Shown here piece after piece: positions 10,842-16,165 of a stretch of DNA of 38,860 nucleotides. Every line of letters starts with the position of its first letter. Position 1 is the first letter of the stretch. This DNA comes from a virus (taxonomy: Duplodnaviria > Heunggongvirae > Uroviricota > Caudoviricetes): the IMG/VR virus record IMGVR_UViG_2713896899_000004; one strand, given 5' to 3'. The position numbers and the translations under genes were made by a program. Below the pieces are notes generated by a model, which was not told where the DNA came from, ran no database searches, and saw only the letters and a program-made list of their open reading frames with translations.

Positions 10842-11324
10842 GTGGCGGTGGTTGTGAAAGCTGATTTGTCAAAAATCCCTTCTATTTCAGGAAATAATGG
10901 TTATTCACTTCGTTGTGAGGAAGTAAAGATAAACGGTGAGTCGGCATACTGCAGCTACTCCGTTTGCCAGCACACCATTCTTGCCTTCAAAGAAAACCGT
11001 CTTCCTCGAACTTCATTCCAGTCGTGCGCAACCGCTATCAAAGCAGGCAAATGCAAGGCGTTAAAAATGATGGTTGAAGAGATTCGTAAAGGAGAATCTC
11101 TGTATTTCGAAGATATGACCGCGCTCATTAAGGAGGTTGAAGAACGGAATAAACAAGCCAGAACTATAAAACGAAAACGTGACAGTGTAACGATTAGTAG
11201 CATGGTTAAGAAGAGCGCCACATCACAAACAGCGATCACTGACGTGTATGCGGCGTTGCTTGAAGAAACAACAAAAGAAACACATGAGCAAATCGATCAA
11301 CATATGGAGGCAAAACAACAATGA
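10842..11324 (+). CDS. Hypothetical protein (Cys-containing N-terminus, coiled-coil C-terminus)
   Basis: ORF ends in an ATGA overlap with the ligase start; start codon uncertain (GTG). Confidence 0.4.
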   Translation: MAVVVKADLSKIPSISGNNGYSLRCEEVKINGESAYCSYSVCQHTILAFKENRLPRTSFQSCATAIKAGKCKALKMMVEEIRKGESLYFEDMTALIKEVEERNKQARTIKRKRDSVTISSMVKKSATSQTAITDVYAALLEETTKETHEQIDQHMEAKQQ

Positions 11325-12643
11325 AAAAGTTGATCGCACTTAAGCATAAGCTGGACGAAATGAAAGCTATGGGAACCAATGCAAAAAAAGAGGCATTGGC
11401 CAACATGGATGACTTTGAACAAAGCATGGTTTCATTGATGCTCAACCCTTTCATCCGTTTTGGGGTAAAGAAATACAAAGTGGCAGAGCCGCTTAGTGAG
11501 TCCGTCCCAAGTGACGAAAAAGCCATTGATGTACTGAATAAGCTGGCCTCTCGCGAGCTGACGGGGAACGCAGCAATAGCAGCTGTTGAGTCTATCGTGG
11601 CGTCAATGTGCGCCGATGGGCAGGACGTGTTCCGTCGTTTCCTCTTAAAAGACCCGAAAGCAGGTGTTGGGATTAGCCTATGCAACAAGGTTTTTGAAAA
11701 TCCCATTCCGAAATTCGAGGTGCAGCTGGCGTCACCGTATAAAGAAAAAGGCGACAAATACCCCTTCAAGCCAAATCCTAAAGCCAAATGGCCGATGATT
11801 GGCAGCCTTAAGCTCGATGGTTTGCGAGTAATTTGTGAGGTTATTGTTGACGAGGAAGAGGTTAACTTCCTTTCTCGTACTGGTAATCCAATCACGTCTC
11901 TCGATCACCTAAAGCCAGCAATGCTCGAATTAGGCAAACTCTCAGGCCACAAACACATCTTCTTCGATGGTGAAGGAACAGCCGGTTCATTTAACCAGTC
12001 CGTATCTGCATTGCGCAAAAAGAACGTGCAGGCAATTGGCGCTATTTATCATGTTTTCGACTTCTTCCTACCGGAATGGCGGGCACAGGCTAAATCCAAA
12101 GAGTATGCAAAGACAGGTATGAAGCTGAAAGAGCGCCTGGCTATGCTCGTGGCGTTGTTCAAAAACGATCGCAGTGAAGGCTACGCACAAGACATTCACC
12201 TGCATCCGTTCTACATCATCCATAGCCACGAAGACTTCATCGAACGCTTCATGAAACGCCTGGACGATAACGAAGAAGGGGAGATGGGCAAAGATCCGAA
12301 CTCTGTTTACGAGTTTAAACGTACCCGCAGCTGGTGGAAGTTAAAAGACGAAGATTCAGAAGATGGTGAAATTATCGACTTTGAGCCGGGCGACCCGGAC
12401 TCTGGTTTTGCCAACACACTTGGAAAAATTGTTATTCGTCTTGAAAACGGCGTCATCGTTCGTGCGAGCGGCATTAAGCATAAATATCTGGACGAGATCT
12501 GGAACAACAAAGAGAAGTACCGTGGTCGTATTGTCGAGGTTCATTGTCACGAGAAAACACCGGACGGCAGCTTACGCCACCCACGACTGAAATGGCCGCG
12601 TTGCTTACGCGATACAGAAGATCGAATCGGAGATAAAGAATGA
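11321..12643 (+). CDS. ATP-dependent DNA ligase
   Basis: Adenylation motif I KxDG present as SLKLDGLRV; 440 aa. Confidence 0.7.
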   Translation: MKKLIALKHKLDEMKAMGTNAKKEALANMDDFEQSMVSLMLNPFIRFGVKKYKVAEPLSESVPSDEKAIDVLNKLASRELTGNAAIAAVESIVASMCADGQDVFRRFLLKDPKAGVGISLCNKVFENPIPKFEVQLASPYKEKGDKYPFKPNPKAKWPMIGSLKLDGLRVICEVIVDEEEVNFLSRTGNPITSLDHLKPAMLELGKLSGHKHIFFDGEGTAGSFNQSVSALRKKNVQAIGAIYHVFDFFLPEWRAQAKSKEYAKTGMKLKERLAMLVALFKNDRSEGYAQDIHLHPFYIIHSHEDFIERFMKRLDDNEEGEMGKDPNSVYEFKRTRSWWKLKDEDSEDGEIIDFEPGDPDSGFANTLGKIVIRLENGVIVRASGIKHKYLDEIWNNKEKYRGRIVEVHCHEKTPDGSLRHPRLKWPRCLRDTEDRIGDKE

Positions 12644-12819
12644 TGCTCGGCTGGATGATTGCATTTTTAGCGGTTGGTTTTTTAATCGGTATTGTGGTGA
12701 TGTCCAGTTGCATCAATGACTACATTAAAAGCGGTGTTATAGAACGACGCGGTCGTATTTATCGCATTGTAGAAATAACCCACACAGTGAAGGAGATTAA
12801 GGATGATCGTATTAAGTAA
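12640..12819 (+). CDS. Small single-pass membrane protein (59 aa), not in the ORF track
   Basis: ATGA overlap with ligase stop; TM helix then GRIYRIVEITHTVKE tail; paralogous to ORF 13015-13167. Confidence 0.4.
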   Translation: MMLGWMIAFLAVGFLIGIVVMSSCINDYIKSGVIERRGRIYRIVEITHTVKEIKDDRIK

Positions 12820-13018
12820 GCGGGAGAAGGAAACGCTTCATGAAATCAGTAAGTGGCCGGAGTTCCCTGAGTACTGGAAGCCTAAAACGCGGGCTAAGTT
12901 AGAGCGTTTAGGGTTGGTTGCAAACGTTTCTGAAACGAAGTGTTCGGCCAACTACCAGTTAACTGATAAAGGGAAAGTATTGCTACAGCAATTAGTAGAA
13001 TCAGGAGTGTTAAAATGA
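12803..13018 (+). CDS. Hypothetical protein
   Basis: RBS aaggag upstream of ATG; 71 aa. Confidence 0.5.
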   Translation: MIVLSKREKETLHEISKWPEFPEYWKPKTRAKLERLGLVANVSETKCSANYQLTDKGKVLLQQLVESGVLK

Positions 13019-13167
13019 TTCCATACATCTCATTAGCTTTTATGGGTGGCTTCCTTATCGGCTTCGGCATCTGTCGTGATTTAATTAAGCAGGAACTTAA
13101 AACCAAAACACTGTGCATCGGAAAGCGTGTGTATCGGGTAGTTCATGAAACAAAGGTGAAAAAATGA
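13015..13167 (+). CDS. Small single-pass membrane protein (50 aa), paralogue of 12640-12819
   Basis: ATGA overlaps on both sides; TM helix then KRVYRVVHETKVKK tail. Confidence 0.4.
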   Translation: MIPYISLAFMGGFLIGFGICRDLIKQELKTKTLCIGKRVYRVVHETKVKK

Positions 13168-13454
13168 GCAATTTAACTTCTTGGGAATGGTGGTTGGCCA
13201 CCTATTTCTTAGCGGCCGGAGTCGCATTCGCCTTTTACGTAGGTCAGTTAGTCGTAAAACTGTTGCTGATTAAATTTGCTAGTCATAAACGTATCGATGA
13301 TGGTCTGTGGCGTCTTGGCACCCTGGTGGAAACTCGCTACGGGCAACTTAAGGAGAACGAAACCATTACTATCCAAGCGAAACGATTCACTGCCACCATC
13401 ACAAGAACACCTAGTCGTAGAGTGGCCTTGATCAAAAAAGGCACAACCGAATAA
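13164..13454 (+). CDS. Small membrane protein
   Basis: N-terminal TM helix (WWLATYFLAAGVAFAFYVGQLVV); translationally coupled to upstream ORF. Confidence 0.5.
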   Translation: MSNLTSWEWWLATYFLAAGVAFAFYVGQLVVKLLLIKFASHKRIDDGLWRLGTLVETRYGQLKENETITIQAKRFTATITRTPSRRVALIKKGTTE

Positions 13455-13460
13455 AACACA

Positions 13461-13486
13461 ATGATAAGTATTTACTTACTTATCAT
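13461..13486. promoter_or_regulatory. Perfect dyad atgataagta-N6-tacttatcat (operator- or promoter-like)
   Basis: 10-bp arms are exact reverse complements; member of a dispersed ATAAGTA/TACTTAT family. Confidence 0.5.
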
Positions 13487-14246
13487 TTACGTATAAGATG
13501 ACTTTGTTTTCGTTGAGACGCGACTGTTTGAACTTAAATACAAGTGCAAACGAAGAAGTCTATCTGGCAGTAGCCTAATAAGCCAAACACCAGCGAGGTC
13601 AGTTTCCAGCCTCGTTACCGAAATGGGACACACTGAGCGAGTGTGATTGCAGAACGCAGGATAGGGCATAGACAGCCAAACCACTATGCCCTATTCGATG
13701 AAGTAACAGAATGGGCGGTTGGTATATTTTCAACTCCATATGACTCCCGGATTCTTAGCCACTGACCGCCCATCCTGTTACGTCATTTTGTTCAATTATG
13801 TCGTTTATACTGGGTTAAAAAGCGGCGACGTAGCCCGGCTGGTATGGTTAGCCAGCACACAACGTTGAGGCCATTACATTTTTATCAATTCTAAGGTTCT
13901 ATTCACAGAGATACCGGCGAGCGTTGATATGTAACATGTTGGGCAAACATTCAATCGGAGTAGTGGCCTCAACGTTGTGAAGACAGGATAGTTGTTGTAG
14001 GTTTAACCACTGTTGCCATTGGTGCCTGTTTTCACAACAAATGATTCCATACATCACATTGTATAAATTACAAAGTAGGTGCTGTCCTCAGAAACATCAT
14101 CTACTTAAAGAATTTGCCTTCTACTATTGAGCGAAGTCGAAAGCGTCTGGCACTAACGAAAAGTGCAAGTAGCGGTGCGTTTCCTGGCAGAAACTAAACC
14201 GTCGCGATTGGCACTGTTGAGTAATAAATACTGGCAGTGCCGAATT

Positions 14247-14399: not shown

Positions 14400-14623
14400 A
14401 TACAACGATAAGATCATTACGGTTAATCGTCGTTCATGTGCACAATGACTGGTCGAAAGGTAGTGATCTTACCGTTGTGGTGGATTCGCAGACTGATGCG
14501 ATAGCTTTCTTGGATGTTAGGGAAATGCGGCCGCAAATCTTCCCTTTCGCGAGCGGTGATCGTCCGTAGTCCTAATTGGCTGCACCGTATGCCGGAGATT
14601 CAGTACCGGCCACCACAACGGCC

Positions 14624-14710
14624 GGAGAGTAGGGAGCATGGTGCTCAAGCGGTCTTGAAAACCGCCCCATTGCGCAAGCGATGATGGTTCGATTCCATTA
14701 CTCTCCGCCA
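14624..14710 (+). tRNA. tRNA-Ser (anticodon TGA), class II with long variable arm
   Basis: Acceptor ggagagt/actctcc, anticodon stem-loop gcggt-ctTGAaa-accgc, long variable arm, T-loop ttcgatt, CCA encoded; D-arm slightly irregular. Confidence 0.65.
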
Positions 14711-14712
14711 GA

Positions 14713-14790
14713 CACAGCGTTGAGCGGTTTGGCCTTTTAATCACCCAGATTAAGACTCCGCTAACATAAACCAGACCGCTCAACGCTGTG
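14713..14790. repeat. Long hairpin (about 20-bp stem, 38-nt loop) immediately 3' of tRNA-Ser
   Basis: cacagcgttgagcggt (14713-14728) is the exact reverse complement of 14775-14790. Confidence 0.6.
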
Positions 14791-14864
14791 ATTGACAATT
14801 ACGGCAGACGTTCTTAACCATAGCTTGCTAACATCCTAGCAACACTTTTTTCAGCGCAAAATTC

Positions 14865-14902: not shown

Positions 14903-16165
14903 TTACTTTACATAGTCGCCCAGTTTTAATATTTCGCGCTTATATTCTTTAACCATGTCACAGGATTCAATGTAAATTCGATGTAAAAGACTGCCGTTAT
15001 CTTTATTTTCATTTATCTTAATTAGTGCTAATTTATATTCATAGTCATCAAATGCCACAATTAAATGGTGGCCTGGGATTATATCTTCGTCACTCTTAAA
15101 GTATATATCTTCAAGTATGTAATCTAGTTGATTAGATTTTCTTTTCTCGATGTAATCTTCAGCCATAGCTATTACATCATTCCTGTCATTTAACCTGTTT
15201 TTTTCGGAAGGCACATCTTCGTAATGTTGCACGATTGAACAACCAATAAGGCGTGGGATGTAAACGTCAAAATGAGTAACTCTATCATTCGCGGTTTTAA
15301 GTAGTTCCTCAAAGTAGTTTCTTACATGTAAAGGCAACTTCTCAAAGTAATCATTAATTATAGGAGAACAAGGAGTTTTATAATTCATAAGAACCGACGG
15401 TACGAGCTTTGGGTGTCGAAACATCCAGTCCCTTTTAACGTCCGATGGAACATAATAACTTTTAATGATATTATCAAAATAATTTATCATTCGAGATTTG
15501 AATATTTTGTTGAATCTAAGGTTTATGAATGTATCCAGATAAGGCATATTTGAATAAGCATCATCAAAAAATATTTCATCATTGAAAAAATCATATTTAT
15601 TCAATAAACAACACAGTTTTTCCGAATTAATATGTTCACAATAATCGATTTTTAATCCAAAGATAGCAATGATCAACTTCATCTGAGGTGGGATTTTAAA
15701 AATTAATTGTGACACATACGCTCTTTTTTCCTTGAGACATTCCCCATCAATATAAAATGAACCATCCACATACTCAAATATATTAATAATATGCTTCACA
15801 TACTGTATTACCTCATGCTGTCTTACCAATGGGTAATATAGTCTATGTAACTCATCGCTGTTTAAATTAATTTTGTGTTTATCGATAATTTGTTTTGCAA
15901 GAAGACATAACTCATCATGTTGATTTAATAAGGAATCAAACCATTGTTTAAATGCACTCTTTCGCATTTCGAACAATGATTCAGTTGTTAATTGAAGGGC
16001 TGAAAAAGCTGCTTTTGCACTTTTTCTCGCTTCGTAGGCATTCCATGCTGTTGCTATAAAAGCAAATGCTGTAGCCAATGTTCCAACAGTTTGACCATTT
16101 AAAACAACCCAATCCCAAAAAATGACGGTGAGCAGTAGTATAATAATGAAAATTAAAAAAGGCAT
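14903..16165 (-). CDS. AT-rich membrane-anchored protein of unknown function (candidate defence / abortive-infection cargo)
   Basis: 420-aa ORF on the opposite strand from almost all other genes; N-terminal hydrophobic helices then a large Asn/Lys/Tyr/Phe/Ile-rich soluble domain; strongly AT-rich; own terminator. Confidence 0.55.
   Translation of the reverse strand: MPFLIFIIILLLTVIFWDWVVLNGQTVGTLATAFAFIATAWNAYEARKSAKAAFSALQLTTESLFEMRKSAFKQWFDSLLNQHDELCLLAKQIIDKHKINLNSDELHRLYYPLVRQHEVIQYVKHIINIFEYVDGSFYIDGECLKEKRAYVSQLIFKIPPQMKLIIAIFGLKIDYCEHINSEKLCCLLNKYDFFNDEIFFDDAYSNMPYLDTFINLRFNKIFKSRMINYFDNIIKSYYVPSDVKRDWMFRHPKLVPSVLMNYKTPCSPIINDYFEKLPLHVRNYFEELLKTANDRVTHFDVYIPRLIGCSIVQHYEDVPSEKNRLNDRNDVIAMAEDYIEKRKSNQLDYILEDIYFKSDEDIIPGHHLIVAFDDYEYKLALIKINENKDNGSLLHRIYIESCDMVKEYKREILKLGDYVK

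What the first reader, a model, noticed from the sequence alone, without database searches (positions are those of the whole stretch)
12640..13454. Tandem small single-pass membrane proteins with a shared C-terminal R-x-Y-R-x-V motif, two of them missing from the ORF track
ORFs 12640-12819 (59 aa) and 13015-13167 (50 aa) share a TM helix followed by GRIYRIVEITHTVKE versus KRVYRVVHETKVKK. A third small TM protein follows at 13164-13454. All are translationally coupled by ATGA overlaps. Small membrane peptides of this kind often mediate exclusion, immunity or holin-like functions.
Basis: seen in the sequence. Interest (0 to 1): 0.4.

Follow-up and report, generated by a model that had tools for sequence, protein, structure and literature searches.

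The report
Paralogous small membrane proteins, SSU5-like phage-plasmid
Two tiny membrane-protein genes sharing a motif are real, conserved paralogs that sit with a third small membrane protein just after the DNA ligase gene of an SSU5-like phage-plasmid; their function is unknown, but they are probably not lysis or prophage-immunity genes.

Summary
The window is an SSU5-like phage-plasmid (98% to Escherichia phage Cyrano). ORFs A (12640-12819, 59 aa) and C (13015-13167, 50 aa) are genuine genes under purifying selection (dN/dS about 0.15), each with a Shine-Dalgarno site. They are true paralogs: BLASTP E=1e-5, hhalign E=6.6e-6, bridging intermediates in distant relatives, and a fixed 26-residue spacing between a TM GxxxG and the R-x-Y-R-x-V motif. 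D (13164-13454) is an unrelated single-pass protein that almost always accompanies C.

Corrections: a fourth gene, B (12803-13018, winged-helix-like), lies between A and C, and the A/B junction is a 17-nt overlap, not ATGA. "Missing from the ORF track" probably reflects a 60-aa cut-off.

All three TM proteins are predicted N-out/C-in with basic cytoplasmic tails. They are translationally chained to the ligase, 10 kb from the lysis cassette, and B, C and D are silent in the Cyrano lysogen. This argues against holin or prophage-immunity roles; lytic-phase exclusion stays possible. The family has 22 representatives among 1.84 billion proteins, all in SSU5-like elements, and no characterised relative.

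Ordinary but uncharacterised; modest interest. A covariation-supported structured RNA lies just downstream.

The parts
11321..12643 (+). ATP-dependent DNA ligase gene. Its stop overlaps the start of ORF A (ATGA). It anchors the small-ORF block in all relatives.
   Evidence: annotated DNA ligase in Cyrano, SSU5, pJN2-26; PF01068 in distant relatives.
12640..12819 (+). ORF A, 59 aa. Single-pass membrane protein (TM about residues 7-25, GxxxG at 13-17) with a basic/acidic cytoplasmic tail carrying RIYRIV (nt 12754-12771). PHROG 4381. Dispensable paralog.
   Evidence: (dN/dS 0.15). Cleanly absent in pAMPD01-type plasmids. Found in 532 PLSDB records, against 682 for C.
12629..12644 (+). Left copy of a 16-nt direct repeat, GGAGATAAAGAATGAT (SD plus start context), bracketing ORF A.
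   Evidence: The ΔA junction in L004 is exactly a recombinant of the two repeats.
12792..12807 (+). Right copy of the direct repeat, GGAGATTAAGGATGAT (14 of 16 identical), at the start of ORF B.
12803..13018 (+). ORF B, 71 aa, soluble and probably winged-helix-like. PHROG 4054. Optional member of the block: absent from several divergent lineages.
   Evidence: only sub-threshold wHTH-type hits over residues 33-66; dN/dS 0.06; absent in L017, L020, L021/22.
13015..13167 (+). ORF C, 50 aa. Single-pass membrane protein (TM about residues 2-20, GxxxG at 12-16) with a strongly basic tail carrying RVYRVV (nt 13126-13143). PHROG 6302. Paralog of A.
   Evidence: (dN/dS 0.17).
13164..13454 (+). ORF D, 96 aa. 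Single-pass membrane protein with a W-rich N-terminus, TM about residues 11-31, a highly conserved juxtamembrane helix (KRIDDGLWRLG..E..YG) and a predicted terminal beta-hairpin. PHROG 4507. Not homologous to A/C. Near-obligate partner of C.
   Evidence: (AF2 pLDDT 66: helix 6-61, strands 67-71 and 76-80).
13461..13487 (+). Conserved AT-rich 11-bp inverted repeat (AATGATAAGTA / TACTTATCATT) just after the D stop codon. It marks the end of the coding block. Whether it is a terminator, a processing site or an operator is unknown.
   Evidence: sequence; central part invariant in alignment A5.

Best explanation
Shown: A and C are diverged paralogs of one very small protein family confined to SSU5-type phage-plasmids. 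The family has an N-terminal TM helix with an invariant GxxxG. Exactly 26 residues later comes a [G/R]-[K/R]-R-phi-Y-[R/K]-phi-V-x-x-T motif in a basic tail. With the unrelated bitopic protein D they form a block chained by 4-nt overlaps to the end of the DNA ligase gene. The recurring core is one or two A/C-type genes plus one D-type gene; B is optional. The genes are under purifying selection, and B, C and D are silent in the plasmid-prophage state (A was not measured).

Inferred: all three TM proteins insert N-out/C-in, so their conserved parts face the cytoplasm. They are made with the replication genes during lytic development. They most likely assemble through GxxxG helix packing, and possibly tail contacts, into a small inner-membrane hetero-oligomer. 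That complex would act on a membrane-embedded or membrane-proximal target from the cytoplasmic side, as bacterial ~50-aa bitopic regulators such as AcrZ or MgtS do. This would be a lytic-phase host-modulating or accessory role, not lysis and not prophage immunity. The target is unknown.
For: - Identity of the element.
- Real genes: intact orthologs at 68-79% nucleotide identity in Salmonella, Klebsiella, Cronobacter, Enterobacter, Citrobacter and Y. pestis pMT. Median dN/dS: A 0.15, B 0.06, C 0.17, D 0.12, ligase 0.04. SD before each start.
- Paralogy. Gapless joint alignment with shared G13, G17, R39, Y41, R42, T47. Bridging members such as P0117, which has a C-type N-terminus and an A-type tail. 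GxxxG-to-motif spacing of 26 in 15 of 17 members.
- Narrow family: 22 hits at E<=1e-3 among 1.84 billion representatives, all examined in about 100-112 kb SSU5-like contigs right after the ligase.
- Core pairing: C 682 and D 653 PLSDB records, equal or nearly equal by genus. A 532, missing from about a third of Escherichia elements. Variants keep C+D when ligase, A and B are deleted (L010). One variant loses the C tail and D together (L009).
- Topology: zero K/R in N-flanks, 4 K/R in the first 15 residues after each TM.
- Operon and timing: no sigma-70-like + strand promoter between 8500 and 15000. LB lysogen RNA-seq of Cyrano, log2(FPKM+5): ligase 2.45/2.66, B 2.97/2.32, C 2.32/2.32 (floor), D 2.83/3.0.
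Against: - No experiment or homolog links any of these proteins to a function.
- Pfam, NCBIfam, PADLOC, PDB sequence search and Foldseek all returned nothing usable.
- AF2 models are low confidence: A is one long helix with tail pLDDT about 60, and D has mean pLDDT 66.
- Complex formation between A/C and D is inferred only from co-occurrence and translational coupling.
- Topology is a positive-inside prediction, not measured.
- In-frame 3-residue indels inside the motif exist in nature: ΔYRV in C of a Salmonella Newport plasmid and +RIY in A of an S. Typhi plasmid. The motif is therefore not absolutely constrained, or those copies are decaying.
- ORF A has no expression data because it is unannotated in Cyrano.
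Confidence: 0.45

Rival explanations
1. Lytic-phase superinfection exclusion. Like T4 Imm and Sp, the small inner-membrane proteins are made early after infection or induction and block DNA entry of secondary phages through TM-level interference with the injection route.
For: Small inner-membrane proteins are co-expressed with early/middle replication genes. The block borders an accessory region that in relatives carries counter-defence or conflict genes such as Tad2-like, Acb2/Tad1-like, Lar and an ADP-ribosyltransferase. Silence in the lysogen does not argue against a lytic-phase role.
Against: There is no similarity to any known exclusion protein. Almost nothing is exposed to the periplasm: N-termini are 1-10 residues, and the conserved, selected parts are the predicted cytoplasmic tails. 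The block is core and conserved rather than variable as conflict genes usually are.
Confidence: 0.2
2. Membrane tether for replication or recombination. Basic cytoplasmic tails (optionally with the winged-helix-like B) anchor replicating phage-plasmid DNA or replisome components to the inner membrane, functionally like phi29 p16.7/p1.
For: The block is invariably positioned and translationally coupled directly after the ligase, within the helicase-primase-ligase operon. The tails are strongly basic: C has 10 K/R in 30 residues and D has 13 in about 60. A DNA-binding-type fold is suspected for B.
Against: The block is retained where the ligase is lost: Y. pestis pMT, L010 and L021. B is absent in several lineages. 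There is no similarity to p16.7 or any DNA-binding domain. The tails are too short for a defined DNA-binding fold.
Confidence: 0.12
3. Lysis control (holin, antiholin or lysis-timing regulators).
For: Small TM proteins with charged C-termini superficially resemble holins. D has a weak PHROG holin hit at E=0.027, covering the TM only.
Against: A complete lysis cassette (holin-position gene, endolysin, Rz-like spanin) lies at 1241-2686, 10 kb away. The block is in the replication operon. The holin hit covers only residues 8-34.
Confidence: 0.05
4. The small ORFs are not functional genes, and the conservation reflects something else such as RNA or overlapping signals.
For: They are very short, unevenly annotated, have no detectable function, and A is dispensable in nature.
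Against: Frame-specific purifying selection holds with saturated synonymous change. Reading frames are intact with SD sites across genera and in relatives with under 50% protein identity, including conservation of overlap coupling with different start codons.
Confidence: 0.02

Closest known systems
PHROG families 4381 (A), 6302 (C) and 4507 (D), all 'unknown function'; SSU5_045, SSU5_047, SSU5_048 and their pHCM2/pMT1/Klebsiella phage-plasmid orthologs
   Same: Full-length, highly significant matches at E 1e-36 to 1e-58. Same position after the ligase.
   Different: Nothing differs; these are the same genes. New here: PHROGs 4381 and 6302 are one family (paralogs), and the C+D pair is the conserved core.
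Bacterial ~50-aa bitopic inner-membrane regulators (AcrZ, MgtS type; from general knowledge)
   Same: Size, a single N-terminal TM, the predicted N-out/C-in orientation, and a short cytoplasmic tail. The mode of action proposed here is binding a larger membrane protein through TM contacts.
   Different: There is no sequence relationship. The target is unknown. These are phage-plasmid encoded and occur as a paralog pair plus a partner.
T4 Imm / Sp superinfection-exclusion proteins (from general knowledge)
   Same: Small inner-membrane proteins made early in lytic infection.
   Different: No sequence or PHROG/Pfam similarity. Different TM number and topology. The conserved parts here are predicted to be cytoplasmic.
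phi29 p16.7 membrane anchor of replication (from general knowledge)
   Same: An N-terminal TM plus a basic cytoplasmic part, encoded among replication genes.
   Different: p16.7 is about 130 aa with a folded dimeric DNA-binding domain. There is no similarity.
Holins
   Same: Small size, a TM segment and a charged C-terminus.
   Different: Not in the lysis cassette, which exists elsewhere. No significant holin family match.

Membership tests
SSU5-type TM-GxxxG/RxYRxV small-protein family (PHROG 4381 + 6302) | Full-length match to the family profile | tested here: met
   A: phrog_4381 E=7.9e-39. C: phrog_6302 E=1.4e-36. The joint profile retrieves both.
SSU5-type TM-GxxxG/RxYRxV small-protein family (PHROG 4381 + 6302) | N-terminal TM with GxxxG, and the [KR]-x-Y-[KR]-x-[VIL] motif 26 residues downstream | tested here: met
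   Spacing is 26 in 15 of 17 members, including A and C of the window.
SSU5-type TM-GxxxG/RxYRxV small-protein family (PHROG 4381 + 6302) | Gene located directly after the ligase and followed by a D-type gene | tested here: met
Holin | Encoded in the lysis cassette next to endolysin/spanin | tested here: not met
   The lysis cassette is at 1241-2686 (endolysin phrog_873, Rz-like spanin phrog_1275; Cyrano annotation). The block lies 10 kb away in the replication operon.
Holin | Significant similarity to a known holin family | tested here: not met
   The only hit is D vs phrog_2359, E=0.027, residues 8-34 (TM only). No Pfam holin hit.
Holin | Membrane hole formation / lysis phenotype | not testable with these tools
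   Needs expression and lysis assays.
Prophage-expressed superinfection exclusion / immunity gene (moron) | Expressed from the resident prophage or plasmid | tested here: not met
   Cyrano lysogen RNA-seq: B, C and D at or near the floor (2.3-3.0 log2(FPKM+5)). Morons such as CYRAN_43 read about 7000. ORF A was not measured, and only the sampled conditions are covered.
Prophage-expressed superinfection exclusion / immunity gene (moron) | Autonomous promoter/terminator unit | tested here: not met
   No sigma-70-like + strand promoter between 8500 and 15000. Starts overlap the preceding stops.
Prophage-expressed superinfection exclusion / immunity gene (moron) | Exclusion phenotype | not testable with these tools
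   Needs plating or DNA-entry assays.
Known anti-phage defence proteins (PADLOC) | Match to a defence-system model | tested here: not met
   No hit for A, C or D. B has only weak Csa3/CARF C-terminal wHTH-type hits, E about 1e-3.
Winged helix-turn-helix DNA-binding proteins (ORF B) | Significant match to a wHTH family | tested here: inconclusive
   Several sub-threshold hits all cover residues 33-66: EarA, HTH_45, DUF3116, SSO5209 and the Csa3 C-terminus, E 0.001-0.15. No PDB sequence hit.
C-type natriuretic peptide (database label of ORF D) | Match to the natriuretic peptide family | tested here: not met
   No such Pfam or NCBIfam hit. No paper links the label to phages. The label looks like a propagated mis-annotation.

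The most novel reading that the evidence does not exclude
The A/C-type plus D-type pair is a previously unrecognised, ligase-coupled inner-membrane module specific to the SSU5 supercluster (including S. Typhi pHCM2 and Y. pestis pMT1). It would have a dedicated lytic-phase function. Candidates are tethering the replicating or recombining phage-plasmid genome to the membrane, or neutralising a membrane-based host defence or excluding competitors. It would act through a new cytoplasmic-face motif (RxYRxV held at a fixed distance from a GxxxG helix).
Probability: 0.15. Interest if true: 0.55.

Novelty: new member of a known kind. Interest (0 to 1): 0.3.

Why it matters
SSU5-like phage-plasmids are widespread in clinical Enterobacteriaceae: 751 PLSDB plasmids carry this block, including Y. 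pestis pMT and Salmonella plasmids of about 107 kb. They spread resistance genes, yet most of their small genes are uncharacterised. This work shows that two separate 'hypothetical' families are one paralogous family with a precise architecture, and that C+D is the conserved core. It also shows that B, C and D are not expressed in the one lysogen with RNA-seq data (A was not measured). Together these give concrete, cheap experiments: GxxxG and RxYRxV point mutants, a C+D deletion, and the natural ΔA variant as a control. The finding also illustrates how genes under 60 aa fall out of ORF tracks. It does not overturn anything.

Tried and rejected
- **Family libraries.** Pfam, NCBIfam and PADLOC scans of all four proteins gave only sub-threshold noise.
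- **PDB sequence searches** with the A+C profile, the D profile and B found nothing meaningful.
- **AF2 of A with the joint A+C alignment** gave a single long helix with a low-confidence tail, so a fold search was pointless.
- **AF2 of D** had pLDDT 66. Foldseek against BFVD gave no hit at E<=0.001. I did not run the PDB fold search on such a model.
- **D as a third, distant member of the A/C family.** I suspected this from 'AKRFTATITRT' vs 'GKRVYRVVHET'. It is rejected: hhalign probability about 1% with only the TM aligning, and shuffle tests at chance.
- **B as an obligatory partner.** Rejected, because several lineages lack it.
- **Literature.** No paper mentions these ORFs. A 2026 Y. pestis regulatory paper is unrelated.
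- **Distant-member tblastn against phages** found no match.
- **The downstream RNA.** No Rfam family matched, and ARAGORN found no tmRNA.
Full report
**What the window is.** The region is 98% identical to Escherichia phage Cyrano, the SSU5-like phage-plasmid pLF82 of E. coli LF82, and 79% identical to Salmonella phage SSU5. The finding's 815 bases are 100% identical to E. coli plasmid NZ_CP048306.1. They match 751 plasmid records from Klebsiella, Escherichia, Enterobacter, Salmonella, Yersinia pestis (pMT), Citrobacter, Cronobacter and Shigella. The local gene order is helicase, primase, two unknowns, DNA ligase (11321-12643), then four small ORFs, then about 800 bases of non-coding DNA, then tRNA-Asn, tRNA-Thr and tRNA-Ser.

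**Checking the observation.**
- The ligase/A, B/C and C/D junctions are ATGA overlaps. A/B is a 17-nt overlap.
- Every ORF has a GGAG/AGGAG/AAGGTG Shine-Dalgarno 6-10 nt upstream.
- A and C are below 60 aa, which probably explains their absence from an ORF track. Public annotation is uneven: all four are called in SSU5 and pJN2-26, A is missing in Cyrano, and C is missing from several plasmid tables.

**Are they genes?** Orthologs of all four are intact in elements whose DNA is only 68-79% identical. Nei-Gojobori estimates with largely saturated dS give median dN/dS of 0.15 (A), 0.06 (B), 0.17 (C) and 0.12 (D), against 0.04 for the ligase. In a much more distant about 106 kb metagenomic relative (L014) the order A-B-C-D is kept. 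Every junction there has a 4-nt overlap although the start codons are ATG, GTG, TTG and ATG. These are real protein-coding genes.

**Are A and C related?** Yes.
- BLASTP gives 33% identity over 45 residues, E=1e-5.
- Family profiles align end to end: hhalign probability 85%, E=6.6e-6.
- The same test against D gives about 1%, with only TM residues aligning.
- No full shuffle of 20,000 reaches the observed score. Shuffles that preserve TM and tail composition reach it 13 times in 20,000.
- R.YR.V occurs nowhere else in the six-frame translation of the window.
- A joint alignment is gapless, with shared G13, G17, R39, Y41, R42 and T47.
- An exhaustive profile search of 1.84 billion representative proteins found only 22 proteins at E<=1e-3. 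Among them are intermediates such as P0117 (MMIPYI... N-terminus like C...RRRVYRVVEITE tail like A) and P0109/P0110 (K-[ST]-G-[VI]-V before the motif, as in A).
- The distance from the TM GxxxG to the motif is exactly 26 residues in 15 of 17 members of both subfamilies.

PHROGs 4381 and 6302 are therefore one family.

**Anatomy of the module.** All distant members examined lie in 100-112 kb SSU5-like contigs, immediately after the ligase. The composition varies:

| Locus | Arrangement after the ligase |
|---|---|
| Window, SSU5, pHCM2/pMT-type, Klebsiella, L014 | A, B, C, D |
| L020 | A, C, D (no B) |
| L017 and L021/L022 | one A/C-type gene, D (no B) |

Natural variants in close relatives:
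- pAMPD01-type E. coli plasmids have lost A precisely.
- One Klebsiella plasmid has lost ligase, A and B but keeps C and D.
- Another Klebsiella plasmid has lost the C tail and D together.

The A deletion is a recombination between 16-nt direct repeats, GGAGATAAAGAATGAT and GGAGATTAAGGATGAT, which are the SD-plus-start contexts flanking A.

Across PLSDB, C is found in 682 records, D in 653 and A in 532. C and D are equal or nearly equal by genus: Escherichia 218/218, Yersinia 43/43, Citrobacter 23/23, Enterobacter 89/90. A is missing from about a third of Escherichia elements. The conserved core is thus an A/C-type protein plus a D-type protein. A is an extra paralog and B an optional insert.

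D-type proteins share a W-rich N-terminus, a TM segment and a strongly conserved juxtamembrane helix (KRIDDGLWRLG..E..YG). AF2 adds a terminal beta-hairpin at modest confidence.

**Topology and timing.**
- In A, C and D the N-flank has no K/R, and the first 15 residues after the TM have four. This predicts N-out/C-in, so the conserved tails are cytoplasmic. This is a prediction, not a measurement.
- No sigma-70-like promoter occurs on the + strand between 8500 and 15000 (1 site on either strand against 9.5 expected), so the block is read with the replication genes.
- In the published LF82 RNA-seq (PMC9928086, S1 Table), the LB lysogen values in log2(FPKM+5), where 2.32 is the floor, are: ligase 2.45/2.66, B 2.97/2.32, C 2.32/2.32, D 2.83/3.0. 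These are the same as structural genes.
- Genes expressed in lysogeny there read 150 (CYRAN_40) to about 7000 (CYRAN_43).
- The block is therefore silent in the plasmid-prophage state. ORF A was not quantified because it is unannotated in Cyrano.

**What it is not.**
- The element has a lysis cassette at 1241-2686: a holin-position gene, an endolysin (phrog_873) and an Rz-like spanin (phrog_1275). It lies 10 kb from the block. A holin role is unlikely.
- A prophage-expressed immunity or exclusion role conflicts with the RNA-seq data and with the lack of an autonomous promoter.
- There is no PADLOC, Pfam or NCBIfam match for A, C or D.
- The 'C-type natriuretic protein' label of D has no support.

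**Best mechanism (inferred).** Small N-out/C-in bitopic proteins of this size generally work by packing their TM helix against a larger membrane protein. The invariant GxxxG and the rigid spacing to a conserved cytoplasmic motif fit a defined helix-helix assembly. Tight co-occurrence and coupling of C with D suggest that they act together. I therefore favour a lytic-phase inner-membrane hetero-oligomer that acts on a host or phage membrane-associated target from the cytoplasmic side (confidence about 0.45).

The rivals are lytic-phase superinfection exclusion (0.2), a membrane tether for replication (0.12), lysis timing (0.05) and non-genes (0.02). Neighbouring accessory regions in relatives carry Tad2-like, Acb2/Tad1-like, Lar and toxin genes. 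This keeps a conflict-related role plausible, but the block itself is core, not variable.

**Limits.**
- There are no functional data.
- The structure models are low confidence.
- Fold and PDB searches were empty.
- In-frame 3-residue indels within the motif occur naturally: ΔYRV in C and +RIY in A.

**Side observation.**
- Directly downstream of D, after a conserved 11-bp AT-rich inverted repeat (13461-13487), lies a segment of about 13505-13875 that is more conserved than the flanking genes.
- It is present in every SSU5-like locus examined, including the most divergent.
- With divergent copies, RNAalifold predicts 73 pairs, of which 27 show compensatory change.
- Controls: 93.5% of cells are paired, against 33-44% when partners are slid. 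There are 27 covarying pairs, against 11.3 +/- 2.4 in shuffles (0 of 500 reached it) and 3-8 when slid.
- Many G-U pairs on the + strand indicate a + strand transcript.
- No Rfam 15 family matches.
- In L017 it lies 3.4 kb from the D-type gene, so it is not physically tied to the small-ORF block.
- It deserves its own evaluation.

**Verdict.** These are real, already-annotated but uncharacterised small membrane proteins. The new points are the paralogy, the motif architecture and the C+D core. Interest is modest.

Noticed in passing
window ~13505-13875 (structured core 13565-13856), + strand: A conserved non-coding element lies between ORF D and tRNA-Asn. It is more conserved than the flanking genes and is present in all SSU5-like loci examined. 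It folds into a multi-branched structure with strong covariation: 27 of 73 pairs compensated, 0 of 500 shuffles reached that, and slid controls gave 3-8. G-U pairs are on the + strand. No Rfam 15 family matches; the only hit is a 17-bit beta_tmRNA match. It is likely an undescribed structured RNA of SSU5-type phage-plasmids.
   Followed up: partly
window 13461-13487: A conserved 11-bp AT-rich inverted repeat (AATGATAAGTA/TACTTATCATT) sits right after the D stop codon. It is followed by a conserved TATAAG/TATGAT -10-like hexamer (~13493-13498). This may be a terminator or operator plus the promoter of the downstream RNA.
   Followed up: no
window 14903-16165, minus strand: A 420-aa ORF (phrog_18168, unknown function, no Pfam hit) occupies the position where Cyrano carries a different 184-aa gene, CYRAN_43. 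That gene is expressed about 700-fold above background in the lysogen. This looks like a variable, lysogeny-expressed moron hot spot.
   Followed up: partly
L017 9810-9885 and L020 6212-6286 (distant SSU5-like contigs): tRNA genes with anticodon CTA (amber-suppressor type; ARAGORN labels them 'Pyl') lie next to the structured RNA in two divergent relatives.
   Followed up: no
L014 9594-10381; L021/L022 8168-8689; L017 8430-8636 and 11703-12168: Downstream of the small-ORF block, relatives carry counter-defence or conflict genes. These include Tad2-like, Acb2/Tad1-hairpin, Lar restriction alleviation, an ADP-ribosyltransferase toxin, HEPN-Toprim and YafO. The region after the block is an accessory hot spot.
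   Followed up: no
L023 3001-3326 (Klebsiella phage VLCpiS13f): The only ORF B homolog found outside SSU5-like elements in the phage collection (38% identity) is also followed, with a 4-nt overlap, by a tiny membrane protein. That protein is 38 aa with a C-terminal TM and is unrelated to A/C. The pair sits in an early region with anti-restriction, ParB-like and methyltransferase genes.
   Followed up: partly
L007 1876-2019 (Salmonella Newport plasmid); P0027 (S. Typhi): In-frame 3-residue indels occur inside the quasi-repeated motif: C loses YRV (KRVVHET) and A gains RIY (GRIYRIYRIV). These suggest slippage on the R-phi-Y/R-phi-V repeat and some tolerance of the motif to one-turn changes.
   Followed up: partly
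L005 (Y. pestis pMT, NZ_CP045155.1 26167-26993): In Y. pestis pMT the ligase side has been replaced by IS100. The A-B-C-D block and the downstream RNA remain intact, immediately next to caf1R of the F1 capsule locus.
   Followed up: no
window 14517-14798 minus strand; Cyrano CYRAN_40: The annotated 'hypothetical protein' CYRAN_40 lies antisense over the tRNA-Thr/tRNA-Ser genes. Its apparent high expression (about 150) is probably tRNA signal, so the CDS is probably spurious. Rfam also scores tRNA-Ser(TGA) at 14624-14710 marginally as tRNA-Sec (47.1 bits against a 47-bit cut-off), whereas ARAGORN calls it tRNA-Ser.
   Followed up: no
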